From assembly GCA_963843275.1 (NCBI GenBank), contig CAWJJM010000011.1:133756-197755 (forward strand): a stretch of DNA of 64,000 nt, given 5' to 3'. The notes below the pieces were generated by a model that saw nothing but the letters and a program-made list of their open reading frames with translations, did no database searches and was not told the DNA's origin. This DNA is from an uncultured Acidobacteriota bacterium (lineage in GTDB: Bacteria > Acidobacteriota > Thermoanaerobaculia > Multivoradales > JBCCEF01). Below are positions 11,421-59,523 of the stretch, piece by piece. Made by a program: the position numbers and the translations under genes. The number at the start of each line of letters is the position of its first letter. Position 1 is the stretch's first letter.

Positions 11421-11971
11421 TCTGCTGGCGCGTCGCCGTCGTCGACGCCGCGGCGGCGTCCCGAGAGCGGGGCGGCATGCTCTGGTTCCCGCGCCCTCTT
11501 CAGGGCGATGGCCGCCACGACAACCCCGACCTCTACGGCTGCCTCTACGTCTCCACCGAGCCTGCCGGCGCCGTCGCCGAGGCCTTGGCGCCGTTCCGTG
11601 GCTCGGGGCCCCTGCTCGACGCGATGCTCGAGCGCGGCGGGCGGCCGCTGAGCCTGGGCGAGCTGGTGCTGGCGGACGACGCCGAGGTCGTCGACCTGGA
11701 CGATCCCGCCGTCCTGGTCCGCGAGTCCCTCCATCCGTCGGAGGTGGCGACCCGGCGCCGGGCCCTGACCCAGGGCCATGCGGAGCGCCTCTTCCGCGAC
11801 CACCCCGAAGCGGTCGGGCTACGCTGGTGGTCGACCCTCGAGTCGACCCTGCTGCATCTGACCCTGTTCGACCGGGCCGCCCCCCGGATCACGCTCGCCG
11901 GCCACCATCCCCTCACTCCCGACCACCCCGCCGTCGTCGCCGCCGCCGGGCTTCTCGGGTTGGTGGCGTGA
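11417..11971 (+). CDS. RES-domain toxin (NAD-targeting toxin family)
   Basis: Positioned immediately after the DUF2384 antitoxin. ...GDGRHDNP..., ...LYVSTEPAGAVAEAL..., ...WWSTLES... fit the Arg/Glu/Ser RES pattern. TTG start at 11417; an internal ATG (MLWFPRP) is an alternative. Confidence 0.75.
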   Translation: MICWRVAVVDAAAASRERGGMLWFPRPLQGDGRHDNPDLYGCLYVSTEPAGAVAEALAPFRGSGPLLDAMLERGGRPLSLGELVLADDAEVVDLDDPAVLVRESLHPSEVATRRRALTQGHAERLFRDHPEAVGLRWWSTLESTLLHLTLFDRAAPRITLAGHHPLTPDHPAVVAAAGLLGLVA

Positions 11972-12005
11972 GTCGGCGGGCCGCCGGCGACGGCCACCGC
12001 CCCGG

Positions 12006-12011
12006 TAGAAT
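12006..12011 (+). promoter_or_regulatory. Candidate -10 element TAGAAT upstream of the tricorn-like protease gene
   Basis: cggTAGAATggc lies 52 nt upstream of the ATG at 12064. GGAGG SD at 12051..12055. No convincing -35. Confidence 0.3.
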
Positions 12012-12063
12012 GGCCGCCCGCAAGCGACTTCCCGTGTCTTCTGTCCGAACGGAGGCGATCTTG

Positions 12064-46042: not shown

Positions 46043-46545
46043 CCCGGCTCGATCGGCTGCGGAGCGGCCACGGCCGCCGGGGCAGGCAGCTCGCGCGCCC
46101 GTGGCCAGCCCAGGGCCATCCCCACCCAGGCCGCGGCGCCGAACAGGACGGCCCACCGCGGGCTCCCGCTGGCCAGGGCGAGGACCAGCCCGACCACGGC
46201 GGCGGCCTCGCGCAGCGCGAAGCCGACCAGCTTCGCCGTCCGGTAACGGTCCAGCCGATCGGCCGCCGTCGCACCCCCGGGGGTCTGCCGCTGCCGCGCC
46301 AGGAGCCGGCGCTCGACGAGCGGCGCGGCGACCAGCAGCAGCGCGCCCGTGGCGGCGAGCATCCCGGGCAGGGGAGACGGCAGGACGGCCCGCGGAAACC
46401 CGCCGAACCGACCGGAGGTCAGGGCCCAGGCGACGGCGACGTACGCGGCCACCGCGGCGGCCAGCGCACCGGCCACGACCTGCACGGCGAGCAGGCGGGG
46501 GGCACCGGGGCCGACGGCCGGCGTCTGCGGGTTCCCTGTGGTCAT
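46039..46545 (-). CDS. Hypothetical 4-TM membrane protein, translationally coupled to hyuB
   Basis: Trimmed to the ATG at 46545 (SD GGAGGAAGG). Four hydrophobic helices. No family recognised. Confidence 0.6.
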
Positions 46546-46747
46546 CCCGACCCTTCCTCCCCCGCGGACCGCGGCCCTCGGCCGGCGCGGCACCGCGCCG
46601 CCGGTCCCTCCCATCCTCGTCCTCCCGCGTCCGCGTGGAGCGGCGCCATGATGGGACGGCGCCGGAGCGCTGTCAAGACGGCGCGGCGCCCCGCCCGGCA
46701 CCCACCGGGCTGGTAGGATCGCGCGCCACGGCGCTCCGGACCATCGC

Positions 46748-47314
46748 ATGCAGCAGCCGACCATCATCGGTGAGGATCCCGGCGAAGGCGACGCGCTCCC
46801 GGACGTTTCCGAGCGCTCCGCCGAGCTCGCCCGCCGCTACTCCCGCCTCATCCACTCCGCCGTCGCCACGGTCGCCGGAGGCGACGCCGCGCGGCTCGCC
46901 GACGACGTCGAGCAGCACGTGCTGATCCAGCTCTTCCGCCAGCTCGCCGGTGAGCAAGAGATCCGCCATCCGGCCTCTTATCTATACCGGGCGGCCGTGC
47001 GCGAGACCGTTCGGGTGCTGCGCCTCGAGGCGCGGTACGAGCGCGGGCGGGCGGCGGCCGGCGAGCTGCCGTCCACCGCCGGGCCCGATCCCGAGCGGGC
47101 GCTCGCCGCCCGCGAGCTGCGCGAGAAGGTGTCGACGGCGCTCGGCAGCCTGACCGCCGCGCGCCGGCGGGCGGCCCGGGCCCACCTGGCCGGGTTCGAC
47201 GTGAGGGAGATCATGGCGATGTATGGCTGGACCTACAACCGGGCCCGCAACCTGATCGCACGGGGCATGGCCGACCTGCGGCGGGCCCTGCGTTCCCGAG
47301 GCGTCGATGGCTGA
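46748..47314 (+). CDS. ECF-type RNA polymerase sigma-70 family factor
   Basis: Region 2-like ...[13 protein letters not shown]...[15 protein letters not shown]; region 4 HTH ...[45 protein letters not shown]. Confidence 0.85.
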
Positions 47315-47975
47315 GCCGCCGCTGCTGCCGGGGCCCGCCTGGCAGACCTCCGCCGGCGAGCACCCGTCCGCCGAGGCGTGGGAGCACCTCGCCTGCGGCG
47401 AGCTGGCGGCCGCCGAACGCCGCCGTCTGCTCGACCACGTGGCGGGCTGCACCGAGTGCACGCGCATCTACCGCGCCCTCGGCATCCTGGAGCGCGGCGC
47501 CCGCGCCTTCGACCCCGGCGTCCCGCGACGGGGGCTGGCGCTGCCGGCGCGGCCCGGGCCGGTGGCGTGGCGCTGGGGTGCGGCGGCCGCCCTCGCCGCC
47601 GCCGCGGCCGCGGTCGTCCTGTGGATCGGCGTCCGCCCGCCGGCGCCGGCCGTGCCCCCCGCCGCCGGCGTCGTCCGCTCCGGACCGGCGGCGGCGGTCC
47701 CGGTCCTGCGTTCGCCGCTCGGCACGGTCGCCGGGCCGGTCGCCTTCGCCTGGGAGGCGGTGCCCGGAGCGGTGCGCTACCGCCTCGAGCTGCTCGACGC
47801 CGACGGAGAGGTCCTCGGCGCGGTGGTGACCGGCGGCACCGGGGCGGCCTGGCCGGCCGCCGTCCCGGCCCGTCCCGGCCGCTACTACTGGCGGGTCGTC
47901 GCCGATCTCGAGCGCGGCGGCACCGCCGCCTCGCCGTTGGCCGACTTCGAGCTCACCGGTCCGCCGACCCGCTAG
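47307..47975 (+). CDS. Anti-sigma factor (zf-HC2 type), single TM helix, extracytoplasmic domain of about 110 aa
   Basis: 8-nt overlap with the sigma gene. H-X3-C...H-X3-C-X2-C (WEHLACGE...LDHVAGCTECTRIY). TM helix WGAAAALAAAAAAVVLWIG. C-terminal domain ...FAWEAVPGAVRYRLELLDADGEVL...GRYYWRVVA... Confidence 0.78.
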   Translation: MAEPPLLPGPAWQTSAGEHPSAEAWEHLACGELAAAERRRLLDHVAGCTECTRIYRALGILERGARAFDPGVPRRGLALPARPGPVAWRWGAAAALAAAAAAVVLWIGVRPPAPAVPPAAGVVRSGPAAAVPVLRSPLGTVAGPVAFAWEAVPGAVRYRLELLDADGEVLGAVVTGGTGAAWPAAVPARPGRYYWRVVADLERGGTAASPLADFELTGPPTR

Positions 47976-48154: not shown

Positions 48155-49273
48155 TCACGCGGCGGGACGCCGGGGTAGCGTGAACACCGGCACCACCCAG
48201 CCCGCCTCGAGGTCGATTCCCAGGACGACCACGTGGAGGAGCAGCGTCCACGAGATCCTCTCCGCCGGCGAGCGCCACACGGTCGGCCGGCAGCCGCTCG
48301 GGATGTCGAAGGCGACCGGCACGGCGGCACCGCGCGGCCCGAGGTAGAGGTCGGCCGGCGGCACCGAGCGTTCCGCGGACCAGAGCTCGGAGTGCCCGAT
48401 GCGGCGGCTCGCTCGGCCGCTGGAGCCGGGTGGTGGAGGGTCCAGGGCCCATCGCGTGCAGACCAGGCGGAGGCGGATGGCCTTCGGCGCGCTGCCCAGG
48501 CCGGTGAGGATGCGACCCTCGAGCCGGCCTCCGATCGCCCCGGGCAGCGTGCTCATCTCGAAGGTCGAGGCGCCGAAGCGCCAGCGGACGAGCCACAGGC
48601 GCAGTGCCAGGCCGGCGAGCAGGAGCGCGGGGACGAGCCACGCGGCGCTGGGCAGCAGCGCCCGGGCGAGCCCGGCGGGGTCGTCGCGCCAGCGCGCCAG
48701 GTCCGGGGGGGAGCTCCGCCAGACGACGAGGACCATCGGCAAGGCCAGGGCCGCAGCGCCGGCTGCCGCCAGGGCGAAGAGGGCCGAGGTCGCTCCCACC
48801 CGCCCGCGCAGCCGGCCGGTCGCCCACTCCTCGTTCCAGCGCCACGGCTCGTCCGGAGAGGCCTGTCGCAGCACCTCGGAGGCGTCGGGCTCCCGCAACC
48901 CGCCGTGCCGGAGCCCTGCGCCGTCGGGCATCGCCCGGAACAGCGCGGTGAGGGCCACCAGCCCGCCGAGCAGCGAGGCGGCGCCCAGCGACCCCATCGG
49001 CTCCCAGCCCGGCTCCCCGAAGGCCCATCGCACCACCGCGACCGACAGCGCGGCGAGCCCCAGCACCTGCGCCAGTCCCGAGATCGCCAACCCCGCGCAG
49101 GCGAGCCCGCCGCGGCCGACGACGGCGAGCGCGCCGCGCAACTCCGCGTCCGAGGGCAGCCCGGGGTTCGTGGCGGGCTCCGTCGCGGTCTCCGAAACGG
49201 GGCTGAAGTCCTCCAGAGGGACGAGCGCGGCGGCCTCCCGGCGGCCCTCGTCGTCGCCGGCGAGCCGGCTCAC
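48155..49273 (-). CDS. Hypothetical membrane protein: 4 TM helices plus a C-terminal soluble domain of about 150 aa
   Basis: GTG start with GGGGGAGGGG upstream. Protein-like composition, unlike the overlapping + frames. The C-terminal pattern (...FEMSTLPGAIGGRLEGRI...IRLRLVC...VPVAFDIPSGCRPT...ISWTLLLH...GIDLEAGWVVPVF) looks like an all-beta sandwich. Last gene of the minus-strand unit 51797->48155. Confidence 0.6.
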   Translation of the reverse strand: MSRLAGDDEGRREAAALVPLEDFSPVSETATEPATNPGLPSDAELRGALAVVGRGGLACAGLAISGLAQVLGLAALSVAVVRWAFGEPGWEPMGSLGAASLLGGLVALTALFRAMPDGAGLRHGGLREPDASEVLRQASPDEPWRWNEEWATGRLRGRVGATSALFALAAAGAAALALPMVLVVWRSSPPDLARWRDDPAGLARALLPSAAWLVPALLLAGLALRLWLVRWRFGASTFEMSTLPGAIGGRLEGRILTGLGSAPKAIRLRLVCTRWALDPPPPGSSGRASRRIGHSELWSAERSVPPADLYLGPRGAAVPVAFDIPSGCRPTVWRSPAERISWTLLLHVVVLGIDLEAGWVVPVFTLPRRPAA

Positions 49274-49334: not shown

Positions 49335-50999
49335 TCACCGGTGAGCGGACCGGGCCGGAGGCACCCCGCCTTCGCCGCGCCGCCGCAGGGCCCAGGCCGC
49401 AGCGGCCGCCAGGACGAGGGCGAGCGCGACCAGGCCCGACCGCCCGAGCGCCGGGATCTCGAGGACCGACGCTGCCGTCACCACGACGCAGGCGGAGAAC
49501 TCGGAGCTGTCGCCGGTGGGGTCGGAGACGCTGGCCACGGCGGTGACGAACCAGCCGGGGGGCACGGCCGGAAGGGAAACGTCGATCGGCCCGCTGCCGG
49601 AGCCGTCGGTGGAGACCTGCGCGAAGCCCAGGTACTGCTCGCCCTCGCCGAAGCCGGACGGATCGCAGGCGGAGCTGGCGTAGAAGGAGACCAGGAAGGG
49701 ACGGCCGGGATCCGACTCGAGGAGGCCGGTGACGGCCGTGACGCCGCCGCTCGCGACGGCGCTCGCCAGCTCCGGGTAGTTCTGGAGGTGGTTGTGGCCA
49801 CCGTCGCCGTCGCCCGGGTCGTTCGCCGTCACGCCGTCGTCGCCGAGGTCGATCCCCAGCCCGTCGTTGGCGAAGATGCGGTTGCCGCGGAAGGTGTTCT
49901 GGAGGTTGTCGACGGCGCCGGCGACGGCGATGCCGGCGCCGTGGTTGAAGGCGATGACGTTGGCCTGCTCGGGCTGCAGGCCGCCGACGACGTTGCCGTC
50001 GCAGCTGCCGCCGCTGGTGCCGATGTGGACGCCGTCGGAGCCGTTCGGGATCGGCACGGTCCCCGTCGCATCGGTGCCGATGAAGTTGCCCTGGATGACG
50101 GCCGAATCGGCGCCGAGGCCGATGAGGATCCCGCGCGAGGCGTTGCCGGAGATGACGTTCCCCTCGCCCGCCGCGCTCCCCCCGACGAGGTTGTACGCCG
50201 AGGCGAGACCGTCGATGCTGAGACCGACGAAGTTCGGCAGCGCCGTGAGCCCGTCGGCGCCGACGCCGATGAAGTTGCCGAGGACCCGGTCGTCGCTCGT
50301 GTTGCTGGCGAGCGACACGCCGTGCTGCGGGCTGCCGGCGAGGAGGTTGCGATCGGCCGGGTCGGCGCCGCCGATCCGGTGGCCCGACCCGCCGAGCACC
50401 GCGACGTTCGAGCCCCCGTTGCCGAACGCCGTGGTCCCGGCGGGATCGGTGCCGAGGAAGTTGCCGGCGATCACGCAGTCGTCGGCACCGTCGAGGACGA
50501 TGCCGGCGCCGCCGGGGCTCGAGCCGCCGAAGACGAAGCGGTTGATCACCAGCCCGCGCAGGGTGCTGCCGCTGCCGCCGGCATCGACCGACAGGCCGAC
50601 GCTCCCGGACCCCGCCGCCGAACCGTCGATCTCGATCAGCAGCACCGCGTCGTCGCTCGCCGACCGGGTGTTGGCGCTCGCCCCCGGCTGGCTGGTGCCG
50701 TCGATCGTCATCGGCACGCTGACCGCCGGCAGCGGGCTGGCGGGCTGCAGGGTGTGGACGCCGGCGCCGGGGATGGCGAACTCGATCCGGTCGTCCGTGC
50801 CGTAGGCCCCGACGGCCACGACGTCCGGGTCGACCGCGCTGCCGAGGTCGAGCGACAGCAGCGCCTCGCGCAGGGTGACGACGCCGTCGGTCGCGACGCC
50901 GTCGCCGCCGCTGGTCACGGTGACCGTCGCCGCCCGGGCGCCGATGCCCCCGAGAAGCGCCGGAAGAACGAGCAGACCTGCGAGCACCGCCCGCCTCAT
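49335..50999 (-). CDS. Secreted right-handed parallel beta-helix repeat protein (CSLREA-like N-terminus) with IPTL-CTERM-like sorting signal
   Basis: Trimmed to the ATG at 50999 (SD GAGGAGG; signal peptide MRRAVLAGLLVLPALLGGIGARA). ...GVVTLREALL..., repeated GNF(I/L)G(T/V)(D/G)..G units, ...NHLQNYPEL.... C-terminus ...VLEIPALGRSGLVALALVLAAAAAWALRRR... Confidence 0.82.
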   Translation of the reverse strand: MRRAVLAGLLVLPALLGGIGARAATVTVTSGGDGVATDGVVTLREALLSLDLGSAVDPDVVAVGAYGTDDRIEFAIPGAGVHTLQPASPLPAVSVPMTIDGTSQPGASANTRSASDDAVLLIEIDGSAAGSGSVGLSVDAGGSGSTLRGLVINRFVFGGSSPGGAGIVLDGADDCVIAGNFLGTDPAGTTAFGNGGSNVAVLGGSGHRIGGADPADRNLLAGSPQHGVSLASNTSDDRVLGNFIGVGADGLTALPNFVGLSIDGLASAYNLVGGSAAGEGNVISGNASRGILIGLGADSAVIQGNFIGTDATGTVPIPNGSDGVHIGTSGGSCDGNVVGGLQPEQANVIAFNHGAGIAVAGAVDNLQNTFRGNRIFANDGLGIDLGDDGVTANDPGDGDGGHNHLQNYPELASAVASGGVTAVTGLLESDPGRPFLVSFYASSACDPSGFGEGEQYLGFAQVSTDGSGSGPIDVSLPAVPPGWFVTAVASVSDPTGDSSEFSACVVVTAASVLEIPALGRSGLVALALVLAAAAAWALRRRGEGGVPPARSAHR

Positions 51000-51098: not shown

Positions 51099-51797
51099 TC
51101 ATCGGGGTGCCGGCGCCCGCGATCCGACGAACCGCCGGCGACGCCCGCGCAGGCGGAGCAATCCGTGCCCGGCGAGCAGGCTCACCAGAGCGAGCAGGCC
51201 CCAGGGGCCGACGGCGGGGACCGCCGCCGCCAGGGCGGGGGAGCCGGGCTCGACCCCCAGGCGGTACGGTGGAGGAAAGCTGGCGCCGAACCCGGGGTCG
51301 ACCGGCACCCCGACCAGCAGGTCCGCCGTCACCGGGAACAGGATGCAGCTCTGGGTCGAAACCTGCCAGGCGTAGGACACCGTCAGCAAGCTCGGCGGCA
51401 CGGTCGGGTCGATGCGGTAGAGCGTCTCTCCGCCGCCATCGGTGAGGAAGAAGGGCGTCGAGGAGAACTTGAGCTCGGGAGGCCCGCTCTGGGTCAGCAG
51501 CGAGGGGAAGACGTGGGGGGGACCGACGCAGTCGCTCTCTGCGTAGAAGGACTCGAAGGTCAGGTTCTCGTTGCGCACCGCAGCGATGCCGGTCTCGCCG
51601 TCGACGCTCAGGGTGGTGAGCGCCAGCGACGCGCTCATGATGGTGCTGGTCGGCGAGTCCTCCCGTTCGAAGTCGACGACCCGCCCGAGCGTCTCTCCGT
51701 TCGACGCCCGGACGACCGCGCTGCCCGCCGGGAGAACCTGTGCCGTGGCGCCCCCGCCCCACAGGGCGAGCACCGCCAGGATTGCGACCCTCTTCAT
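51099..51797 (-). CDS. Small secreted hypothetical protein with IPTL-CTERM-like sorting signal
   Basis: Trimmed to the ATG at 51797 (SD AAGGAGG; signal peptide MKRVAILAVLALWGGGATA). C-terminus ...AAAVPAVGPWGLLALVSLLAGHGLLRLRGRRRR... Confidence 0.72.
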   Translation of the reverse strand: MKRVAILAVLALWGGGATAQVLPAGSAVVRASNGETLGRVVDFEREDSPTSTIMSASLALTTLSVDGETGIAAVRNENLTFESFYAESDCVGPPHVFPSLLTQSGPPELKFSSTPFFLTDGGGETLYRIDPTVPPSLLTVSYAWQVSTQSCILFPVTADLLVGVPVDPGFGASFPPPYRLGVEPGSPALAAAVPAVGPWGLLALVSLLAGHGLLRLRGRRRRFVGSRAPAPR

Positions 51798-51978: not shown

Positions 51979-54900
51979 ATGAGATACTGGGAGCCACCCT
52001 TGAAGGCCTCGCTCCAGACGGTCGTCCGCGCCGCCCTGGCGGCTCTGCCGGGGCTCGGCCTGGCCCTGGCGCTGAGCGCCTGCGGCGGCGGTTCCGAGGG
52101 ACTGCTCGTCACCGCTTGCGAACCCTGGGGAGCGGCGAGCCGGTCGGGGGTCGAGATCGGCGATCGGTTGGTCGGTTGGCGGAGCGGCGGCCAGGTCGGC
52201 CGGCTGCGCACGCCACTCGATCTCTTCGTCGTCGAGATCGAGCAGGGCCTGGACGGCCCGGTCACGCTCGAGGTCGACCGCCGTGGTCACCGCCGCCTGC
52301 TCCGCCTCGACGGCGGAGCCTGGGATCTCGAGACCCGAACGGGCGGTGGCGACGCCGACCCTCCCGGGGAGGGCTCGGATCACACCCTCCGGCGGCTCCG
52401 CGCGCAGGCCGCCGCCGCCGCGGCGGCGGCCGACCCCCGGCTCGCCGCCTGGTGGCACGTGGCCGAGGGCGACCTGCTGACCGGGGCTGGGCGCTTCGCC
52501 GAGGCGGGGCGCGCCTACGCCCAGGCCCGGCACGAGAGCGCCGGACCGGCGGCGAGGGCGGCCGTCGACGACTGGCAGGCCCGGCGGCTGATCGCCGCCG
52601 GCAGGCTCGACGACGCGGCGGCGGCGGAGCGCCGCGCCCTCCACCTGCGCGCGGGGCGGGACCCCGGCGGCGCCGCGGTCGCGGTCTCCCTCTACCAGCT
52701 CGGCCGCATCGCCGCGCGCCGCCAGCGCTGGGACGACGAGGCGAAGCTGACCCGTGCCGAAGCGATCCTCCTTGCGATGCCGCGCGGCCGCGAGCTGCTG
52801 GCCGAGGTCCTCAACCTGCGCGGCATGATGGCCTGGGGCCGGCGTGACCTCGACGCGGCCGCCGGCCACTACCGGGCGGCCGCGTCGCTCCTCGCCGGCC
52901 TCGGCCGCGAGAACCCGCTGCGCGCCAATCTCCTGGGCAACCTCGGGCTCGTCGCCGAGCTGCGCGGCGACATGGGCGAGGCGGCCGGGTTGTTCGCCGC
53001 CGCGGCGGCCCTGCACGCCCGGGTCGACCCGGAGAGCGTCGACGCCGCCTACGCGTACAACTACCTCGGCATCCTGGCCAAGCAGAAGGGCGACCTGGCC
53101 GCCGCCGAGCACTGGTACCGGCGCGCCGAGGCGGTCTTCGAGGTGGCGCTTCCCGACGGCGTGGAGACCGCCGGGATGCTCAACAACCTGGGCAACCTGG
53201 CCCTGCGACGCGGCGAGCTGGCCGCCGCGGAGCGCCTCCACCGTCGGGCGCTGGCGGTTCGCCAGCGAATCGTGCCGGGAACGGCCGACCACGCGGCGAG
53301 CCTGCAGAACCTCGGTCAGGTGCTGGAGCTCGAGGGCGAGACCGAACGCGCCGAGCCCTACCTGGTCGAGGCCCGGGCGATCAAGGCCCGGGTGGTCCCG
53401 GACAGCCTCGACTACTCCAACGCCCTCACCGCCCTCGGCCGTCTGCGCCAGGACCAGGGGCGGCTCGACGAGGCCGAGTCCCTCCACCGCGAGGCGCTGG
53501 ACCTGCGCCGCGCGGTGGCGGAGGGGCGCTGGGAATGGGCGGAGAACCTCTTCTTCCTCGGGGAGATCGCCCTCGCCCGCGGAGACCGGGGCGACGCCGA
53601 GAAGCTCTGGCGTCAGGCGGTCGACGGGATCGAGCAGAACCGCGAGCGCCCCGAGTGGGACCCGGAGGAGCGCTCCGGCTTCGCCGCCCCCTTCCAGCGC
53701 TACTACCGGCGGCTGGCGGCGCTGCTGGCGGCCGGCGGCCGTGCGCGCGAGGCCTTCGAGCTGCTGGAGAGCGCCCGCGCCAGGGCGCTGCGCAGCCTGC
53801 TCGCGGCACGCCGGCTACGCCACCCCGCCGGTCTGACGGCGCCGCGGGCGGCACGGCGCGACGCCCTCCGGGAGGCGCAGGGCAGGCGGCTCGACGAGAT
53901 CGCGGCCGCGCTCGGCGAGGGCGCGGTGCTGCTCGCCTACTCGGTGGCCGAGGACGGCACCCTGCTCTTCGTCGTCGCCGGTGGGACGGCCCGTGCGCCG
54001 CAGGTCCACCGCATCCCGGCCGGGGAGGAAGAGCTGCGCTCGCGGGTGGCGATCTTCCGCGCCCTGGTCGAACGCGGGCGCCGGGGCGGCGCGGTGGTCG
54101 AGCCGGCGCTCCTCGCCCAGGGCCGCTGGCTCTACGAGCGCCTCGTCGCTCCCGCCGAGAACGCCCTCGCCGGCGCCGAGCGCATCGTGATCGTCCCCGA
54201 CGGGCCGCTCTTCTCGCTGCCCTTCGCCGCCCTGGTGCGCCGCCGCCGGCCGACGGTGGCCTGGCTGGGGGGCTGGCGGCCGCTCAGCATCGTCCCCGCG
54301 GCCGGTGTCCTGGTCGAGCTCGGCCCGGCCGGCCGCAGGGCCCGCCCGCCGCGCCGGCTCGTCGCCTTCGCCGACCCGGTCTACCCGCCGGGCGGGCTGG
54401 CGCCCCTGCCGGGGACGCGCTCGGAGGTCTCCCGCCTCGCGCCCCTCTTCCCGGGCAGCCTCGTCTACCTGGGGCGCGACGCCACCGAGGACCGCCTGGG
54501 GGCCTTGCCGTCGTCCCCGCTCATCCTCCACCTCGCCGTCCACGGACTGCTCGACGAGCGCTTCCCGCTGGAGTCGGCGCTGGCGTTCTCGACCCCCGCG
54601 GCGGCGGCGCCGGCGCGTGAGGACGGTCTGCTCCACGCCTGGGAGGTGCCCGAGCGGCTCGATCTCGACGCCGACCTCGTGGTGCTCTCCGCGTGCGATT
54701 CGGGCCGTGGACGCGAGCTGCCGGGGGAGGGGATCCTGGGGCTCGCCCGCGCCTTCCAGATCGCCGGCGCCCGCGCCGTGCTGGCCTCCCAGTGGGCGGT
54801 CGCCGACCGCTCGACCGGCGAGCTGATGGTCCGCTTCTACCGCCACCTCGCGGCCGGCCGGTCCGCCGCCGCCGCCCTCGCCGCCGCACAGCGCGAGCTG

Positions 54901-54990
54901 GCCGACGGCGACGCCGACGGCGCCGGCCTCGCCGCGGCCCGGCACCCCTTCGCCTGGGCCGGCTTCCAGCTCGTCGGCGACGGCAACTGA
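51979..54990 (+). CDS. Lipoprotein with PDZ-like domain, TPR repeats and C-terminal CHAT (caspase-like, clan CD) peptidase domain
   Basis: Track ORF 51571..54990 trimmed to the ATG at 51979. Lipobox ...GLALALSAC. PDZ-like ...GVEIGDRLVGWRS...VTLEVDRRG. At least 7 TPR-like units (e.g. NYLGILAKQKGDLAAAEHWYRRAEAVF, NNLGNLALRRGELAAAERLHRRALAV). CHAT His ...ILHLAVHG... and Cys ...LVVLSACDSGRG... Confidence 0.85.
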   Translation: MRYWEPPLKASLQTVVRAALAALPGLGLALALSACGGGSEGLLVTACEPWGAASRSGVEIGDRLVGWRSGGQVGRLRTPLDLFVVEIEQGLDGPVTLEVDRRGHRRLLRLDGGAWDLETRTGGGDADPPGEGSDHTLRRLRAQAAAAAAAADPRLAAWWHVAEGDLLTGAGRFAEAGRAYAQARHESAGPAARAAVDDWQARRLIAAGRLDDAAAAERRALHLRAGRDPGGAAVAVSLYQLGRIAARRQRWDDEAKLTRAEAILLAMPRGRELLAEVLNLRGMMAWGRRDLDAAAGHYRAAASLLAGLGRENPLRANLLGNLGLVAELRGDMGEAAGLFAAAAALHARVDPESVDAAYAYNYLGILAKQKGDLAAAEHWYRRAEAVFEVALPDGVETAGMLNNLGNLALRRGELAAAERLHRRALAVRQRIVPGTADHAASLQNLGQVLELEGETERAEPYLVEARAIKARVVPDSLDYSNALTALGRLRQDQGRLDEAESLHREALDLRRAVAEGRWEWAENLFFLGEIALARGDRGDAEKLWRQAVDGIEQNRERPEWDPEERSGFAAPFQRYYRRLAALLAAGGRAREAFELLESARARALRSLLAARRLRHPAGLTAPRAARRDALREAQGRRLDEIAAALGEGAVLLAYSVAEDGTLLFVVAGGTARAPQVHRIPAGEEELRSRVAIFRALVERGRRGGAVVEPALLAQGRWLYERLVAPAENALAGAERIVIVPDGPLFSLPFAALVRRRRPTVAWLGGWRPLSIVPAAGVLVELGPAGRRARPPRRLVAFADPVYPPGGLAPLPGTRSEVSRLAPLFPGSLVYLGRDATEDRLGALPSSPLILHLAVHGLLDERFPLESALAFSTPAAAAPAREDGLLHAWEVPERLDLDADLVVLSACDSGRGRELPGEGILGLARAFQIAGARAVLASQWAVADRSTGELMVRFYRHLAAGRSAAAALAAAQRELADGDADGAGLAAARHPFAWAGFQLVGDGN

Positions 54991-55136: not shown

Positions 55137-57176
55137 ATGGACCGCCGCCGACAGATCCCGGAGCGACGAGGCCGCGGGGAGCGCCGCCGCCGCCCGCGGC
55201 GGGTCGGCTGCGCCGTCGCCGCCCTGGCGCTCGCCGGGGCCGGCCTCCCGCGCAGCGCCGCCGCCGACACCGTCTACGCCGATCCCGCGGGCGCCTGCGC
55301 CACGCTCACCCCCTGTTTCACCACCCTGCAGGCGGCGATCGACGACGTCCACGCGCCCGGCACGGTGGGGCTCTTCCCGGGCACCTACGCCGAGAGCGTC
55401 GACCTCGACACCATGGGCTCGTCCGTGGGTGGCGGGCCCGGCGACCTGACCCTGCAGGCGCTCGACGCCGGCGGTTCGCCGGCCACCGGCGGGGTGACGA
55501 TCGATCCCGGCGCGTCGGGCGGACCGGGGACCGGACGAGCGATCCACGGCGGGCTGCTGGTCGCCTTTCCCGGCGACCTCGTGGTGCACGGGATCGGACT
55601 GACGTCTCCCGACAGCGGCGGCGTGGTGGTGGTCACCGACGGCGGCGTGGAGCTCGCCGACGTCGTGATCCAGAGCTGCGCCGACAACGGTGGAACGCTC
55701 CTCGCCCAGGGTCCGGTCTCCCTGACGCGGCTGGTCGCCTTCCTCAACGCCGGCTCAGGCCTGGGCGCCCTCGGCTCCGCGGTCACGGTGGACGACGCCA
55801 CGGCCGACCGCAACCAGGGGACCGGCCTGGTGGTCGCGAGCGACGGAGCGGTGGTCGCCCACGGCATCCATGCCGCCGGCAACGGCGGGAGCGGCCTCTC
55901 CACCCTCTCCTGCACCTCCGTCGAGGTCGAGGACGTGGTCACCGACGACAACGATCTCAACGGCACCGAGGTCGTCGTCGATGCGGGGAGCGGTTGCACC
56001 CCGGGCGGGCTCGCCGCCAGCGCCGCGGCCTCACAGGTCGGCCGCACCCCGGGCTTCGCCGGCGCGCTCGGCGCCGTCGGAACCGCGCCCCGCAGGGTCT
56101 CGGCGCCTGCCAGCGTCGTGGTGGTGGCGTCGATCCACCACCTCTCGGCGACCGGCAACGGCGGGGTGGGAGCCGGGGCCCAGGCGGTCTCCGGCGGCGA
56201 CCCGCTGGGCGGCATCGAAGCCGACGACGTCACGGCGGCCGGCAACGCCAGCCGGGGGCTCGTCCTGGTGGGCGACGACGTCCGGCTCTCGAACGCCACC
56301 CTGACCGGGAACCTGACCGGCACCCTGGTCGCCGGCGTCACGGTGACGGTCTCCCAGGTCGTGGCGAGCGACAACGCCCCGGGGACCTACACGCCCCCGG
56401 ACGAAGGGTCCGGCCTGGCGGTCGCCACCTCCGGCGCCGCCGAGCTCAACGACGTGGTGGCCGAGCGCAACGCCTTCGCGGGCCTGGTGCTGAGGACCTT
56501 CGACGGGCCCTCACCGGCGGGCCCCTACCGGATCGCCGGTGGCCGCTTCGCCGCCAACGCGGTCGGGATCGGCTCGTTCGGAGACGGCGAGGTCGTCGTC
56601 GCGATCGACGGCAGCGAGGTCGCCGACAACGGTGCGGCCGGGATCGCGCTGCCCAAGCTGCGGAGCGGGATCGTGCACGCCACCCTCGCCACCGGCAACG
56701 TGGCCGGGATCACCGCCGGCGTCGAGGGCCTCCTCGACGTCCGTGCCTCGGAGGTGTCCGGCAACCAGGAGGGTCTCGTCCTGGCGGTGCAGCCCGACGC
56801 CGTCGCCCGGATCCTGTGCTCGAACGTGCGCGACAACGTCCCCGGTGCCGGTCTCGAGCTGTTCGATGGGAGCGCGGTCGACGCCCGCGCCGACTTCTGG
56901 GGCGACCCCTCCGGGCCGACCCATCCGGACAATCCCGGAGGCGTCGGCGACGAGGTGGTGGACGGCGCCAACGGCGGCGTCGGCAGCGTCGACTTCTCCG
57001 CCTTCCTTGGGGCGGCGGCCACGGCGGACGACTGCCCCGCGATCTCCGCCGTCGAGATCCCCACCGCGGGCGCCTCCGGGCTGCTGGCGCTGGCGGGGCT
57101 GCTGGCGCTCGCCGGGCTCTCCGTCCTCGCCGGGCACCGCCGCCGGACGGGGGCCGAGGGGCGCGGCGCGCCCTAG
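55137..57176 (+). CDS. Secreted right-handed beta-helix repeat protein with IPTL-CTERM-like sorting signal
   Basis: Track ORF 54693..57176 trimmed to the ATG at 55137 (SD GAGGAG; Arg-rich n-region plus VGCAVAALALAGAGLPRSAAA). ...CFTTLQAAIDDVHAPGTVGLFPGTYAESVDL..., many ...N.G.GL.V... coils. C-terminus ...SAVEIPTAGASGLLALAGLLALAGLSVLAGHRRR... Confidence 0.8.
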   Translation: MDRRRQIPERRGRGERRRRPRRVGCAVAALALAGAGLPRSAAADTVYADPAGACATLTPCFTTLQAAIDDVHAPGTVGLFPGTYAESVDLDTMGSSVGGGPGDLTLQALDAGGSPATGGVTIDPGASGGPGTGRAIHGGLLVAFPGDLVVHGIGLTSPDSGGVVVVTDGGVELADVVIQSCADNGGTLLAQGPVSLTRLVAFLNAGSGLGALGSAVTVDDATADRNQGTGLVVASDGAVVAHGIHAAGNGGSGLSTLSCTSVEVEDVVTDDNDLNGTEVVVDAGSGCTPGGLAASAAASQVGRTPGFAGALGAVGTAPRRVSAPASVVVVASIHHLSATGNGGVGAGAQAVSGGDPLGGIEADDVTAAGNASRGLVLVGDDVRLSNATLTGNLTGTLVAGVTVTVSQVVASDNAPGTYTPPDEGSGLAVATSGAAELNDVVAERNAFAGLVLRTFDGPSPAGPYRIAGGRFAANAVGIGSFGDGEVVVAIDGSEVADNGAAGIALPKLRSGIVHATLATGNVAGITAGVEGLLDVRASEVSGNQEGLVLAVQPDAVARILCSNVRDNVPGAGLELFDGSAVDARADFWGDPSGPTHPDNPGGVGDEVVDGANGGVGSVDFSAFLGAAATADDCPAISAVEIPTAGASGLLALAGLLALAGLSVLAGHRRRTGAEGRGAP

Positions 57177-57255: not shown

Positions 57256-59523
57256 TCAGCCGCCCGCGGGAGGGTCCCGCCGTTCCAGGAGCAGGGCGCC
57301 GGCCGCGTCCACCCGGACGTCCCAGCCGGGCGGCACCACCACGGCGCCGTGGGCCTCGAAGACGAGCGCCGGACCGCCGCAGCGGGCGCCCGGCGCAAGG
57401 CGCGAGCGGTCGTGGACCGGCACCCGCCGCCAGCCGCCGCCGAACCAGGCGCGGCGGTGGGCGGCCGGCGGCGGCGCCGTGCTCTCCTCGACCGGCTCCG
57501 GGGCCGGCTCGGGTGCCGCGCGCGACGAGGCCACCACCCGCAACGACTCGACCTCGATCCCCCGGTCGGCCGGCACGTAGCCGTAGCGCTCCCGGTGGGC
57601 GCGGGTGAAGAGCTCGCCGAGCCCGGCGCCGGCGACCGGCTCGACCTCCAGCGTCGACTCCTGCCCGGAGAAGCGCAGGTGCACGAGGCGCCGCCGCACC
57701 GCGACCTCCTCCCGCGCGATCCCCTCGGCGGCCACCGCCGTGGCGGCCTCCTCCCCGAGGTCCGCGAGCCAGGCGGCGAGCCGGTCCTCCACCGCCGCCA
57801 GCGGCGCCAGCACCTGGCGCTGCGCGAAGCGCTCGACCACCGCCGCCCCCAGCCCCCGCGCCGAGAGCAGCCCGGCGTCGCGGGGCACGAGCACGGCGGG
57901 GACGCCGAGCAGCGCGGCCACGGCGCAGGCGTGCTGTCCCCCGGCGCCGCCGAAGGCGACCAGCGTGTGCTCCGCCGGGTCGTAGCCGCGGCGTACCGAC
58001 AGCGTGCGGATGGCGTCCGCCATGCGCTCGTCGGCGATCGCCGCGAAACCCTCGAGCAGGGCCTCGCGGCCGGGGGGCGGGTCGCCGCGGCGGGAGGCGG
58101 CCGCGGCGACCCGCCGCGCCACGGCCTCGAACGCCGCCGCCGCCGCCGCCGGCTCGACCGGGATCCCGAAGCGCTCGGGATCGAGCCTGCCGAGCAGCAG
58201 GTTGACGTCGGTGAGCGCCAGCGGTCCGCCCGCGCCGTAGCAGGCCGGCCCGGGGCGGGCACCGGCGCTCTCGGGTCCGACGGTGAGGGCGGCGCCGTCG
58301 AAGCCGCACACCGAGCCGCCGCCCGCCGCCACCGTCTCGATGGCCAGGGCGGGAGCCACCAGGTGGGCGTCCCCCACCCGGTGCTCGAAGAGGTACTCGA
58401 AGTCGCCGTCCCAGCGCGCCACGTCGGTCGAGGTGCCGCCCATGTCGAACGACAGCAGCCGCCGGTGACCGGAGCGGACGGCGGCCCGCGCCGCCCCCGC
58501 CACGCCGCCGGCCGGGCCGGAGAGCAGGGCGTCGGTGGCGCGCAGGTCGGGCCGCCGCACCAGGCCGCCGGCGCTGGTCATCACGTGCAGGGTGCCGCGC
58601 GCCTCGGGGAGGGCGGAGCCCACGGCGTCGAGGTAGCTGTCGAGGACCGGCGCCAGGTAGGCCTCGACCACCGCCGTCTCGGCGCGCGGCACGTAGCGCG
58701 CCAGCGGCGCCAGCTCGGCCGAGGCGACCACGCGGGTCAGCCCGCCGCGGCGCAGCGCCGCCGCCACCGCCCGCTCGGGCGCCGGGTTGCGGTAGCTGTG
58801 CAGCAGCGCCACCGCCACCGCCTCGATCCCCTCGTCGCGCAGCTCCCGGGCCACCGCGCCGAGGCCGTCGAGCGCCGGCGCCCGCAGGGTCGAGCCGTCG
58901 GCGGCGAGTCGTTCGTCCACCTCGACGACGCGGCGGTGCAGCGGGCGCGGCTTGACCACCTCGAGGGCGAACAGGTCCGGCCGCTGCTGGTCGCGGATCT
59001 CGAGCAGGTCGGCGAACCCGCGGGTGACGACCAGGGCGGTGGCGGCACCGCGGCGCTCGAGCAGGGCATTGGTGCCGCGGGTGGTGGCCAGCCGCAGCGC
59101 CATGGGCGGCAACGGCTCGCCGGCGGCGGTGCGGGTGACCAGCCGCGCCGCCAGCACCGGCGCCTCCTCGGCGAAGCGCAGCTCGACCCGGTCGCCGCGG
59201 CGCAGCGCCGCCGGCGGCGCGCCCTGCAGCGTGAAGGCGCCGCGGCCGGCGTCGTAGCCGGCGACGCCGCTCCCCGCGTCCGCCGGCGCGCCCAGCCGGT
59301 GCAGCGCCGCGCCGGCGAAGAACCCGGGGGGCACCGTCCAGCGCGGCTCCACCTCGACGCGGTCTCCCGCCGCCACCCGCACCACCCCGCGCAGGGCGCT
59401 CGACGACAGCACCTTGGCGCGGTGCACGACGCCGTCCGGGGCCACCGCCAGACAGTCGGTGAAGGTGCCCCCGGTGTCGATCCACACCCGCCAGCGCGGG
59501 CCGCTGGTACCGTCGCCGCTCAC
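57256..59523 (-). CDS. hyuA: Hydantoinase A / oxoprolinase family protein
   Basis: GTG start with GGGAGGGAG SD. ...RVWIDTGGTFTDC..., ...ATTRGTNALLERRG..., ...SFDMGGTSTDV..., ...AFGGAGGQHAC... Confidence 0.9.
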   Translation of the reverse strand: MSGDGTSGPRWRVWIDTGGTFTDCLAVAPDGVVHRAKVLSSSALRGVVRVAAGDRVEVEPRWTVPPGFFAGAALHRLGAPADAGSGVAGYDAGRGAFTLQGAPPAALRRGDRVELRFAEEAPVLAARLVTRTAAGEPLPPMALRLATTRGTNALLERRGAATALVVTRGFADLLEIRDQQRPDLFALEVVKPRPLHRRVVEVDERLAADGSTLRAPALDGLGAVARELRDEGIEAVAVALLHSYRNPAPERAVAAALRRGGLTRVVASAELAPLARYVPRAETAVVEAYLAPVLDSYLDAVGSALPEARGTLHVMTSAGGLVRRPDLRATDALLSGPAGGVAGAARAAVRSGHRRLLSFDMGGTSTDVARWDGDFEYLFEHRVGDAHLVAPALAIETVAAGGGSVCGFDGAALTVGPESAGARPGPACYGAGGPLALTDVNLLLGRLDPERFGIPVEPAAAAAAFEAVARRVAAAASRRGDPPPGREALLEGFAAIADERMADAIRTLSVRRGYDPAEHTLVAFGGAGGQHACAVAALLGVPAVLVPRDAGLLSARGLGAAVVERFAQRQVLAPLAAVEDRLAAWLADLGEEAATAVAAEGIAREEVAVRRRLVHLRFSGQESTLEVEPVAGAGLGELFTRAHRERYGYVPADRGIEVESLRVVASSRAAPEPAPEPVEESTAPPPAAHRRAWFGGGWRRVPVHDRSRLAPGARCGGPALVFEAHGAVVVPPGWDVRVDAAGALLLERRDPPAGG

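What the first reader, a model, noticed from the sequence alone, without database searches (positions are those of the whole stretch)
51979..54990. Periplasm-facing PDZ-TPR-CHAT lipoprotein: candidate C-terminal-signal peptidase or DegS-like site-1 protease
Seen: a lipobox (LALALSAC), a PDZ-like segment, at least 7 TPR-like repeats, and a CHAT domain with an intact His (LHLAVHG) / Cys (LSACDSG) dyad. The gene is flanked on both sides by genes whose products carry the shared C-terminal signal, and it sits 4 kb from an ECF sigma/anti-sigma pair. Established: CHAT is a clan CD caspase-like peptidase. Other clan CD enzymes act as C-terminal-signal transpeptidases (GPI8 in GPI anchoring, PorU in type IX secretion). 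PDZ domains bind free C-terminal peptides. The PDZ protease DegS senses C-termini of misassembled outer-membrane proteins and cleaves the anti-sigma RseA. Inference, two models: (a) the CHAT lipoprotein removes or transfers the [IV]P[AT]xG tail of its neighbours; (b) it monitors unsorted tails via PDZ/TPR and cleaves the extracytoplasmic domain of the adjacent anti-sigma factor. I know of no CHAT protein for which either role has been described.
Basis: inference. Interest (0 to 1): 0.8.

Follow-up and report, generated by a model that had tools for sequence, protein, structure and literature searches.

The report
Exported caspase-like protease partnered with anti-sigma factor
The gene encodes an exported caspase-like (PDZ-TPR-CHAT) lipoprotein that, in many unrelated bacteria, sits directly beside the same sigma/anti-sigma pair found 4 kb away here, so it most likely belongs to that signalling switch, probably as the protease that cuts the anti-sigma factor, and is not a tail-removing sorting enzyme.

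Summary
Window 52000-54990(+) encodes a 996-aa protein with a lipobox, a divergent PDZ, about 11 TPR hairpins and a CHAT domain with an invariant His/Cys dyad. Three flanking genes carry IPTL-CTERM-like tails. An ECF sigma/anti-sigma pair lies 4 kb upstream.

Orthologues of this sigma and anti-sigma (zinc-finger domain, TM helix, FN3-like periplasmic domain) abut a TPR-CHAT gene in 11 of 15 distinct loci, with gaps of -19 to +42 bp. Four of these CHAT genes encode lipobox-PDZ forms. The best CHAT homologue found (45% identity) is one of the 11. The closest solved structure is DdvA, an anti-sigma factor with a fused periplasmic TPR-CHAT that has been proposed to cleave itself.

The best reading is therefore a two-polypeptide ("split") DdvA-like module. 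The CHAT lipoprotein is the candidate site-1 protease or sensor for the anti-sigma factor, whose disordered periplasmic linker carries a conserved Arg-Ser/Gly.

The sorting-peptidase model is poorly supported. No tails occur beside 80 other CHAT loci. Tail-bearing proteins accompany the module only in this organism's near relatives and are more likely its output.

This is a new variant of a known kind.

The parts
46748..47314 (+). ECF-type sigma factor, 188 aa
   Evidence: TIGR02937 scores 42.2 bits against a cut-off of 42.9, and Sigma70_r2 is weak. Orthologues at 30-73% identity lie next to TPR-CHAT genes elsewhere.
47307..47975 (+). Anti-sigma factor, 222 aa. Cytoplasmic zinc-finger anti-sigma domain (about residues 22-68), TM helix (about 87-109), disordered Pro/Ala linker with the conserved Arg124-Ser125 (nt 47676-47681), and an FN3-like periplasmic domain (residues 134-217).
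   Evidence: zf-HC2 is weak. The profile hits the ChrR anti-sigma domain (9e-4) and an Fn3-like protein (7e-4). The AF2 model has pLDDT 81, with the FN3 part above 93 and the linker below 50. The Foldseek top hits are FN3 modules. Arg-[S/G/A] conservation is shown.
48155..49273 (-). 372-aa predicted membrane protein of unknown family, between the anti-sigma gene and the tail-bearing genes
   Evidence: No Pfam, NCBIfam or PADLOC hit. No homologue in any fetched locus.
49335..50999 (-). 554-aa secreted parallel-beta-helix protein with an IPTL-CTERM-like tail (EIPALGRSGLVALALVLAAAAAWALRRR)
   Evidence: Regex scan. TIGR04174 scores 14.6 bits, sub-threshold. Homologues at 70-81% identity, with the same tail, abut the orthologous anti-sigma gene in L096 and L100-L102.
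51099..51797 (-). 232-aa secreted protein with an IPTL-CTERM-like tail (VPAVGPWGLLALVSLLAGHGLLRLRGRRRR), divergent from the CHAT gene
   Evidence: PF18203 scores 19.7 bits against a cut-off of 20.8. The start codon was corrected and matches the gene call in L001.
52000..54990 (+). PDZ-TPR-CHAT lipoprotein, 996 aa. Signal peptide and lipobox at 52000-52083 (Cys28). PDZ-like domain at 52102-52341. TPR superhelix at 52375-53805. CHAT domain at 53917-54987. Catalytic His848 at nt 54541-54543 and Cys899 at nt 54694-54696.
   Evidence: AF2 model with pLDDT 86 and pTM 0.78. Foldseek hits in order: DdvA, separase, Csx29.
55137..57176 (+). 679-aa secreted right-handed beta-helix protein with an IPTL-CTERM-like tail (EIPTAGASGLLALAGLLALAGLSVLAGHRRR), downstream of the CHAT gene
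   Evidence: PF13229 Beta_helix scores E=5e-12. Tail found by regex.
44441..46156 (-). Hydantoinase B/oxoprolinase gene. It marks the left boundary of the 11-kb block.
   Evidence: PF02538 scores E=9e-180.
57256..59523 (-). Hydantoinase A/oxoprolinase gene. It marks the right boundary of the 11-kb block. Its usual partner, hyuB, lies on the other side of the block.
   Evidence: PF01968, PF05378 and PF19278.

Best explanation
The gene encodes an exported, lipid-anchored caspase-like protease. It is the third component of a conserved ECF sigma signalling module, a two-polypeptide ("split") counterpart of the Myxococcus anti-sigma factor DdvA.

Shown:
- The protein has a lipoprotein signal, a PDZ domain, a TPR superhelix and a CHAT domain with an intact His/Cys dyad.
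- Its sigma and anti-sigma neighbours have orthologues that are packed directly against TPR-CHAT genes in many unrelated contigs.
- The anti-sigma factor has a cytoplasmic zinc-finger anti-sigma domain, one TM helix, a disordered periplasmic linker and an FN3-like domain.

Inferred mechanism:
1. In the resting state the anti-sigma factor holds the sigma factor at the membrane.
2. A periplasmic or envelope signal is read by the PDZ/TPR part of the lipoprotein. The signal could also act through binding of the anti-sigma FN3 domain.
3. The signal activates the CHAT protease, which cuts the anti-sigma factor in its juxtamembrane linker. The candidate site follows the conserved Arg124. This is a site-1 cleavage.
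4. An RseP-type site-2 protease then releases the sigma factor.
5. The sigma factor switches on its regulon. In this lineage the regulon probably includes the adjacent IPTL-CTERM-like surface proteins.
For: Synteny, CHAT side. Five of 80 CHAT-centred genome loci carry orthologues of this sigma and anti-sigma immediately adjacent: L004, L012, L021, L055 and L067.

Synteny, sigma side. In a reciprocal metagenome scan with the sigma alignment, all four loci with DNA beyond the anti-sigma gene have a convergent TPR-CHAT gene there: L086, L087, L089 and L092.

Synteny, anti-sigma side. Contexts of anti-sigma homologues L097, L098 and L099 show the same triad.

Together these give 11 of 15 distinct loci, with gaps of -19 to +42 bp.

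Orthology and co-inheritance.
- The best CHAT homologue found (45% identity, L097) is in such a triad.
- The triad CHATs in L004, L086, L099 and L012 share the lipobox and PDZ.
- Sigma identity and CHAT-domain identity to the window co-vary across triads (Spearman 0.82, p=0.002), consistent with co-inheritance.
- A paralogous sigma2/anti-sigma2/CHAT2 triad occurs in L094 and L096.
- Other ECF-like sigmas abut CHAT genes in L017, L028, L037 and L081.

Structure. The Foldseek top PDB hit is DdvA (8rw5/8rot, E=1e-14, about 935 aligned columns), followed by separase and craspase Csx29.

Literature. DdvA has a periplasmic TPR-CHAT proposed to clip its own linker before RseP acts (PMC11506125).

Candidate site. 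The anti-sigma linker is disordered and carries hydrophobic-Arg-[S/G/A]. The motif is present in all 6 synteny-linked anti-sigmas and essentially all 18 closer homologues.

Block structure. The seven genes lie as one block between hyuB and hyuA.
Against: - No cleavage has been shown. Synteny proves a functional link, not its direction.
- The usual convergent orientation means the CHAT gene is not co-transcribed with the sigma operon, except probably in L012.
- In this window, and in its nearest relatives (L094, L096, L100), the CHAT gene is not adjacent to the pair. It is 4 kb away here, on the same strand.
- Many PDZ-TPR-CHAT homologues have no sigma pair nearby. Examples are the P0002/3/6/10 clade, which has an alpha/beta hydrolase upstream, P0004, and P0011, which sits with a CHASE2 kinase. 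The family is therefore not dedicated to anti-sigma factors.
- Even for DdvA, proteolysis is still only a hypothesis.
- The apparent fusion of the anti-sigma FN3-like domain to P0011 is weak evidence. That domain is a very common repeat module, with 48,546 representatives.
- No shared promoter motif was found.
- The compartment (inner or outer membrane leaflet) is unknown.
Confidence: 0.45

Rival explanations
1. The CHAT lipoprotein is an output of the sigma factor, not its activator. The sigma factor drives expression of an exported protease, and in this lineage of the tail-bearing surface proteins too. The protease matures, sheds or remodels envelope or surface proteins, possibly the neighbouring beta-helix proteins.
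For: - The conserved neighbours of ECF pairs are often their main targets (general knowledge of ECF systems).
- The convergent orientation gives the CHAT gene its own promoter.
- Secreted proteins of varying kinds flank the triads: Calx-beta proteins in L094, signal-peptide proteins in L098 and L086, and S8 peptidases in L094, L096 and L103.
- Tail-bearing proteins abut the pair in L096, L099 and L100.
- PDZ-TPR-CHAT homologues also occur without sigma pairs.
Against: - No sigma-type promoter motif could be found upstream of the CHAT or tail genes.
- This reading does not explain why the partner is so consistently this anti-sigma family with 3' ends touching.
- It does not explain why the nearest structural relative is itself an anti-sigma ectodomain.
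- It does not explain the conserved Arg in the anti-sigma linker.
Confidence: 0.25
2. The CHAT lipoprotein is the sorting peptidase or transpeptidase that removes or transfers the IPTL-CTERM-like tails of its neighbours, in the way the clan CD enzymes GPI8 and PorU act on C-terminal signals.
For: - All three credible tails in the 64 kb flank this gene.
- In L099 a lipobox-PDZ-TPR-CHAT orthologue (40% identity) is divergently adjacent to a protein ending in AIPTLGGWGLLILIGLL..IRR.
- Tail-bearing proteins sit by the orthologous sigma pair in L096 and L100.
- The one paper in the searchable library that mentions IPTL-CTERM names no sorting enzyme for it.
- The clan CD precedents are recalled from general knowledge, not tested here.
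Against: - There are 0 tail-bearing ORFs in 1.2 Mb around 80 CHAT loci.
- There are none beside the closest sequence clade or beside the triads in L004, L086, L097 and L098.
- The conserved partner of the protein is the sigma/anti-sigma pair, not a tail carrier.
- In L094 and L096 a TPR-CHAT protein itself carries such a tail, so it is cargo there.
- Known enzymes for tripartite motif-TM-basic signals are membrane-embedded (general knowledge).
- The tails do not reach the curated IPTL-CTERM thresholds.
Confidence: 0.08
3. The CHAT lipoprotein is a non-proteolytic co-sensor. Its TPR/PDZ surface binds the FN3-like ectodomain of the anti-sigma factor, or a ligand, and gates access of another protease. 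This would resemble the way RseB protects RseA. The dyad would serve only for self-processing, or not at all.
For: - In DdvA the bulky TPR-CHAT blocks RseP, and catalytic mutants showed no phenotype under the conditions tested (PMC11506125).
- TPR and PDZ domains are protein-binding modules.
- The synteny fits any physical partnership.
Against: His844, His848, Cys899 and many surrounding residues are invariant across 30 homologues at about 38% mean identity. That argues for a retained catalytic function.
Confidence: 0.12

Closest known systems
[quoted passage not shown]
   Same: - A periplasmic TPR-CHAT with a His/Cys dyad is tied to an ECF sigma factor and a zinc-finger anti-sigma domain.
- DdvA is the best structural match to the window protein.
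- The proposed logic is the same: CHAT acts as site-1 protease on a flexible juxtamembrane linker before RseP.
   Different: - In DdvA the TPR-CHAT is fused to the anti-sigma factor. It forms a dimer and is proposed to cut itself in trans.
- Here the protease is a separate lipoprotein with an added PDZ domain, and the anti-sigma factor carries only a small FN3-like ectodomain.
- Sequence identity is only 17-18%.
- There is no CBASS or CRISPR context and no PADLOC defence hit.
- The paper reports DdvA-like fusions as restricted to Myxococcota and one Comamonas. The split module appears in Acidobacteriota and other phyla.
Craspase: type III-E CRISPR TPR-CHAT protease Csx29, which cleaves Csx30 (PMC10028731)
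   Same: - A TPR-CHAT protease whose regulated cleavage of a partner protein is linked to an ECF-type sigma factor.
- Structural match at E of about 1e-13.
   Different: - Craspase is cytoplasmic, RNA-activated and bound to Cas7-11.
- It has no signal peptide and no PDZ.
- No cas genes occur here.
DegS-RseA-sigmaE of E. coli
   Same: The logic is the same: a periplasmic PDZ-bearing protease performs site-1 cleavage of a single-pass anti-sigma factor in response to an envelope signal.
   Different: - DegS is an S1 serine protease, unrelated in fold and catalysis.
- Only the PDZ is homologous. The family PDZ profile hits the DegS PDZ at E of about 4e-4.
- The activating ligand here is unknown.
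Clan CD C-terminal-signal enzymes (GPI8, PorU)
   Same: They share the caspase-like fold class. PorU and GPI8 act on C-terminal sorting signals (recalled, not tested here).
   Different: - The families are different (C13 and C25 against CHAT/C50-like).
- No conserved co-occurrence of this CHAT family with tail carriers was found.
IPTL-CTERM sorting domain (TIGR04174 / PF18203)
   Same: The three neighbours' tails have the same tripartite layout and an [IV]P[TA]xxxG start. They are the best matches to these models.
   Different: All scores fall just below the curated cut-offs. Extra residues follow the basic cluster.

Membership tests
CHAT domain (PF12770; caspase-like, clan CD) | Match to the family profile above the curated threshold | tested here: met
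   216.8 bits against a cut-off of 24, E=6e-64, covering the full profile 3-289.
CHAT domain (PF12770; caspase-like, clan CD) | Catalytic His and Cys present and conserved | tested here: met
   His844, His848 (LHLAVHG) and Cys899 (LSACDSG) are invariant in a 30-sequence alignment.
CHAT domain (PF12770; caspase-like, clan CD) | Separase/craspase-type TPR-CHAT fold | tested here: met
   AF2 model with pLDDT 86. Foldseek hits to DdvA, separase and Csx29 at E from 1e-14 to 1e-12.
CHAT domain (PF12770; caspase-like, clan CD) | Peptidase activity | not testable with these tools
   Needs biochemistry.
PDZ domain | Match to PDZ profiles | tested here: inconclusive
   The window copy alone gives no Pfam hit. 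The homologous family domain hits the DegP, RseP and DegS PDZ domains (E down to 4e-11), and 21 of 23 members hit PF17820. The model shows a PDZ-like beta/alpha unit at residues 35-114.
Bacterial lipoprotein | Signal peptide ending in a lipobox [LVI][ASTVI][GAS]C | tested here: met
   LALALSAC with Cys28 was read from the sequence. Lipoboxes are also present in the orthologues in L004, L086, L099 and L012. No predictor was run, and export and acylation are untested.
DdvA-type anti-sigma factor (fused ZAS-TM-TPR-CHAT) | Anti-sigma domain, TM helix and TPR-CHAT in one polypeptide | tested here: not met
   The CHAT protein starts with a lipoprotein signal. The anti-sigma factor is a separate 222-aa protein.
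DdvA-type anti-sigma factor (fused ZAS-TM-TPR-CHAT) | Genetic coupling of a periplasmic TPR-CHAT to an ECF sigma factor and a zinc-finger anti-sigma domain | tested here: met
   Conserved triad in 11 of 15 distinct loci.
Site-1 protease of an anti-sigma factor (functional class, e.g. DegS, PrsW) | Cleaves the extracytoplasmic part of the anti-sigma factor on a signal | not testable with these tools
   There are only indirect indications: the synteny, and a conserved Arg-[S/G/A] in a disordered linker.
Dedicated sorting enzyme for a C-terminal signal (sortase, exosortase or PorU type) | Co-occurrence of enzyme and signal-bearing substrates across genomes or loci | tested here: not met
   At locus level there are 0 tails around 80 CHAT loci (1.2 Mb) and none beside most triads. 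Tails occur only in the window, L096, L099 and L100. Genome-wide profiles could not be computed.
IPTL-CTERM (TIGR04174 / PF18203), for the neighbours' tails | Score at or above the curated cut-off | tested here: not met
   19.7-20.1 bits against 20.8 (PF18203), and 14.6-17.4 against 20.5 (TIGR04174). The layout is the same, so they are called IPTL-CTERM-like.
Anti-phage defence system (CBASS/CRISPR-linked CHAT) | Match to defence-system protein models or cas/CD-NTase neighbours | tested here: not met
   PADLOC gives only a generic TPR hit. The neighbours are housekeeping genes.

The most novel reading that the evidence does not exclude
The module is an envelope-surveillance pathway built on a caspase-like protease. 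The PDZ-TPR-CHAT lipoprotein would sense the export or sorting state of IPTL-CTERM-type surface proteins, for example the new C-termini or unprocessed precursors. It would respond by cutting the anti-sigma factor after the conserved linker arginine. That would make a clan CD counterpart of DegS/sigmaE that also feeds back on the surface proteins encoded beside it.
Probability: 0.1. Interest if true: 0.85.

Novelty: new variant of a known kind. Interest (0 to 1): 0.6.

Why it matters
Regulated proteolysis of anti-sigma factors is a central bacterial signalling mechanism. The known site-1 proteases are serine or metallo enzymes, or the anti-sigma factor cuts itself.

A caspase-like CHAT protease in this role has so far only been proposed, for the fused Myxococcus protein DdvA, whose signal and cleavage remain unproven. 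The paper reports DdvA-like fusions as phylogenetically narrow.

A separate, soluble-domain protease paired with a small anti-sigma factor occurs in many phyla. That gives a simpler system in which to test the idea: two proteins, a predicted cleavage site, and a Cys-to-Ala control. It would also assign a first function to a large family of exported TPR-CHAT proteins.

Tried and rejected
- **Tail scan.** A regex scan for tail-bearing ORFs in all fetched loci found none around 80 CHAT loci. This counts against model (a).
- **Apparent conserved neighbours.** Gene sizes of 555, 193 and 665 aa near P0003 and P0010 suggested conserved neighbours. The sequences are unrelated and have no tails.
- **Shared promoter.** I looked for a common -35/-10 motif upstream of six orthologous sigma genes, and aligned upstream regions from close relatives. 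Nothing convincing emerged. The generic promoter/terminator scan was uninformative.
- **Domain fusion.** The anti-sigma FN3-like domain appears fused to the PDZ-TPR-CHAT homologue P0011. I downgraded this because the domain is a very common repeat module, and P0011 sits with a CHASE2 kinase rather than a sigma pair.
- **First metagenome scan.** It was repeated with four sequences.
- **Sigma against the PDB.** No hit, so no link to DdvS could be tested.
- **Other libraries.** PADLOC and Rfam gave nothing relevant.
- **ECF classification paper.** The main text does not mention CHAT, and its supplements are not held.
- **CHASE2/CHAT literature.** No paper in the library holds these terms together. 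My recollection of a CHASE2-CHAT-FecR association is unverified.
- **Organism name.** Cluster look-up gave none. An Acidobacteriota origin is inferred only from the taxonomy of the homologues.

Full report
**1. What is at the coordinates**

The window is very GC-rich, at 72-80%. It can also start at the TTG at 52000, which has a GGGAG box 6 nt upstream and is the start in the public gene call (P0001, 996 aa).

From the TTG the protein begins MKASLQTVVRAALAALPGLGLALALSAC. That is a basic n-region, a hydrophobic core and the lipobox LSAC, with Cys28.

- CHAT: Pfam gives E=6e-64 across the whole profile.
- TPR: TPR_12 scores E=1e-24 in four stretches.
- Catalytic residues: in an alignment of 30 homologues with about 38% mean identity, His844, His848 (LHLAVHG) and Cys899 (LSACDSG) are invariant.
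- Structure: the AlphaFold2 model built on that alignment is confident (pLDDT 86, pTM 0.78). It shows a signal helix, a beta/alpha domain at residues 35-114, 23 helices (about 11 TPR-like hairpins) at 126-602, and the CHAT alpha/beta domain at 640-996.

The PDZ call needs a caveat. This copy alone gives no Pfam PDZ hit. It does align with the N-terminal domain of its homologues. A profile of that domain hits the PDZ domains of DegP (E=4e-11), RseP and DegS among solved structures, and 21 of 23 members match PF17820. It is therefore a divergent member of a PDZ-bearing family.

**2. The neighbours**

Three genes end in [IV]P[AT]xG, then a hydrophobic helix, then a basic cluster:

- 49335-50999(-), 554 aa, a parallel beta-helix protein.
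- 51099-51797(-), 232 aa. I first used an internal start and corrected it.
- 55137-57176(+), 679 aa, Beta_helix at E=5e-12.

A regex scan finds no other credible tail in the 64 kb. The tails are the best matches to IPTL-CTERM models but fall just under the curated cut-offs, so I call them IPTL-CTERM-like.

An ECF-type sigma factor (46748-47314) and a zf-HC2 anti-sigma factor (47307-47975) lie upstream. The anti-sigma gene ends 4.0 kb before the CHAT start. A 372-aa membrane protein without any family lies in between.

The whole block of seven genes sits between a hydantoinase B gene (44441-46156) and a hydantoinase A gene (57256-59523). The two are normally partners, which suggests that the block entered as one unit. 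The tail-bearing genes have somewhat lower GC.

No defence-system, RNA-family or sorting-enzyme-like gene was seen near the block.

**3. The protein family**

Signal peptide-PDZ-TPR-CHAT is a recurrent architecture, mostly in Acidobacteriota and especially Thermoanaerobaculia. Some members have lipoboxes and others ordinary signal peptides.

**4. Testing model (a), the tail peptidase**

I fetched 80 genome loci with CHAT relatives, 1.2 Mb in total, and scanned every ORF for tails. None was found.

The closest sequence clade (P0002/3/6/10, 42% identity) has an alpha/beta hydrolase directly upstream, fused in P0010, and no tails. Similar gene sizes nearby were a coincidence.

**5. Testing model (b), the link to the sigma pair**

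Blasting the window's sigma and anti-sigma factors against all ORFs of those loci gave an unexpected result. Orthologues of both lie immediately next to the CHAT gene in L004 (sigma 48%, anti-sigma 37%, CHAT 37% over the full length), L012, L021, L055 and L067.

The reciprocal test agreed. A scan of metagenome contigs with the sigma alignment returned eight loci. In all four that extend beyond the anti-sigma gene (L086, L087, L089, L092), a TPR-CHAT gene lies directly downstream in convergent orientation.

A third route started from homologues of the anti-sigma factor and gave these contexts:

- L097: sigma 65%, anti-sigma 51%, CHAT 45%. This is the best CHAT homologue found anywhere.
- L098: sigma 55%, anti-sigma 49%, CHAT 37%.
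- L099: sigma 57%, anti-sigma 43%, CHAT 40%, with lipobox and PDZ.

All three have the same sigma -> anti-sigma -> <- CHAT arrangement.

Counting distinct loci, 11 of 15 have the CHAT gene touching the anti-sigma gene, with gaps of -19 to +42 bp. Four of them (L004, L086, L099, L012) have the lipobox-PDZ form. Sigma identity and CHAT-domain identity to the window co-vary across the triads (Spearman 0.82, p=0.002), as expected if the three genes are inherited together.

A paralogous triad (sigma2/anti-sigma2/CHAT2) occurs in L094 and L096. Unrelated ECF-like sigmas abut CHAT genes in L017, L028, L037 and L081.

**6. The anti-sigma factor**

Its model (pLDDT 81) shows four parts:

- a helical anti-sigma domain at residues 22-68;
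- a TM helix at about 87-109;
- a disordered Pro/Ala-rich linker;
- a confident beta-sandwich at 134-217.

The beta-sandwich matches FN3 modules. The family profile hits the ChrR anti-sigma domain (9e-4) and an Fn3-like protein (7e-4), and only faintly the N-terminus of DdvA (0.26).

Inside the disordered linker, a hydrophobic-Arg-[S/G/A] motif (Arg124-Ser125 here) is present in all six synteny-linked anti-sigmas, which are only 19-38% identical to the window's. It is also present in essentially all 18 closer homologues. A conserved arginine in an otherwise variable, flexible juxtamembrane segment is a reasonable candidate P1 residue. From the DdvA paper, separase cuts after Arg. This point is inference.

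**7. Comparison with known systems**

The best structural match in the PDB is DdvA, the M. xanthus transmembrane anti-sigma factor with a periplasmic TPR-CHAT (8rw5/8rot, E=1e-14, about 935 aligned columns, 17-18% identity). It ranks ahead of separase and the craspase protease Csx29.

The DdvA paper proposes that its CHAT domain clips the flexible linker next to the TM helix, in trans within a dimer, before RseP acts. It shows that removal of the TPR-CHAT exposes DdvA to RseP. It also states that the signal and the cleavage are unproven, and that DdvA-like fusions are confined to Myxococcota and one Comamonas.

Craspase is a cytoplasmic TPR-CHAT that cleaves Csx30 in a sigma-linked pathway.

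What I did not find in the searchable literature is the arrangement seen here: a separate exported PDZ-TPR-CHAT lipoprotein paired with a small FN3-type anti-sigma factor.

**8. Where the tails fit**

Tail-bearing genes accompany the module only in near relatives of this organism.

- In L096 and L100-L102 (anti-sigma 64-65% identical), a homologue of the 554-aa protein (70-81% identity, same tail) abuts the anti-sigma gene. L096 also has a second tail-bearing protein.
- In L099 the CHAT gene is divergently adjacent to an 858-aa BNR/sortilin-type protein. That protein ends in a textbook-looking AIPTLGGWGLL... tail.
- In L094 and L096 the second CHAT protein itself ends in such a tail.

The more distant triads have other secreted proteins nearby, or nothing conserved.

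The simplest reading is that in this lineage the tail is the usual surface-anchoring signal. The tail-bearing proteins would then be lineage-specific cargo or output of the module, not its defining partner.

Topology also argues against a periplasmic PDZ reading unsorted tails. In such tripartite signals the free C-terminus, the basic cluster, is expected on the cytoplasmic side. This rests on established knowledge of sorting signals and was not tested here.

**9. Verdict**

- The best explanation (confidence 0.45) is a split DdvA-like module in which the lipoprotein is the site-1 protease or sensor for the anti-sigma factor.
- The main rival (0.25) is that the protease is an output of the sigma factor that acts on surface proteins.
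- A non-catalytic co-sensor role gets 0.12.
- The sorting-peptidase model gets 0.08.
- Synteny establishes the partnership but not its direction. No cleavage has been shown for any member, DdvA included.
- The finding is a new variant of a known kind, and it is directly testable.

Noticed in passing
window 44441-46156 and 57256-59523: The hydantoinase B and hydantoinase A genes are normally adjacent partners. Here they are separated by the whole 11-kb block of sigma, anti-sigma, membrane protein, tail proteins and CHAT. The block therefore looks like a single insertion. The tail genes have lower GC (72-74% against 78-80%).
   Followed up: partly
L094 13690-16674 (-) and L096 2584-5568 (-): A second TPR-CHAT protein (994 aa) has its own sigma2/anti-sigma2 pair. 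It ends in an IPTL-like tail or TM anchor (AIPITLAAVAAVGGLGLLGWKLRRRRR) and is followed by an S8 peptidase gene.
   Followed up: partly
L103 824-10539: P0011, a PDZ-TPR-CHAT homologue with extra N-terminal FecR-like and FN3-like parts, overlaps the end of a CHASE2 Ser/Thr kinase gene. It is followed by an S8 peptidase with cadherin-like repeats. So exported CHAT proteases pair with other membrane receptors as well as with anti-sigma factors.
   Followed up: no
L062 100-8605: A CHAT gene is followed by a 2326-aa protein that shares beta-helix repeats (38% identity) with the window's 554-aa tail protein. That protein ends in a type IX secretion C-terminal domain instead. The passenger is the same and the anchor differs.
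   Followed up: no
L084 10001-13777; L085 525-4209; P0003 context: The closest sequence clade of the CHAT protein always has an alpha/beta hydrolase gene directly upstream. In P0010 the two are fused into one 1258-aa protein.
   Followed up: no
window 47676-47681 (anti-sigma Arg124-Ser125): A hydrophobic-Arg-[S/G/A] motif is conserved in the otherwise variable, disordered periplasmic linker of all anti-sigma factors of this family. It is a candidate protease site.
   Followed up: partly
window 47706-47957 (anti-sigma FN3-like domain): This domain belongs to a huge family of repeat modules. There are 48,546 cluster representatives at E<=1e-3, mostly giant proteins with 10-40 copies.
   Followed up: partly
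window 9968-10885 and 11176-15438: There is an Rce1-like (CPBP) intramembrane protease gene and a Tricorn-type S41 protease with its own PDZ domain. CPBP enzymes serve as sorting enzymes for some C-terminal signals (recalled from memory). No link to the tails was tested.
   Followed up: no
window 46700-46747; upstream of the sigma genes in L004, L021, L055: Sigma genes of this group have a TAnnnT box (TAGGAT, TATACT, TAAAAT, TATAAT) 15-25 nt before the start codon. This hints at a housekeeping-type promoter with a very short leader, rather than an obvious autoregulated ECF promoter.
   Followed up: no
window 48155-49273: A 372-aa predicted multi-pass membrane protein has no family in Pfam, NCBIfam or PADLOC and no homologue in any fetched locus. 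It is wedged between the anti-sigma gene and the tail-bearing genes.
   Followed up: no
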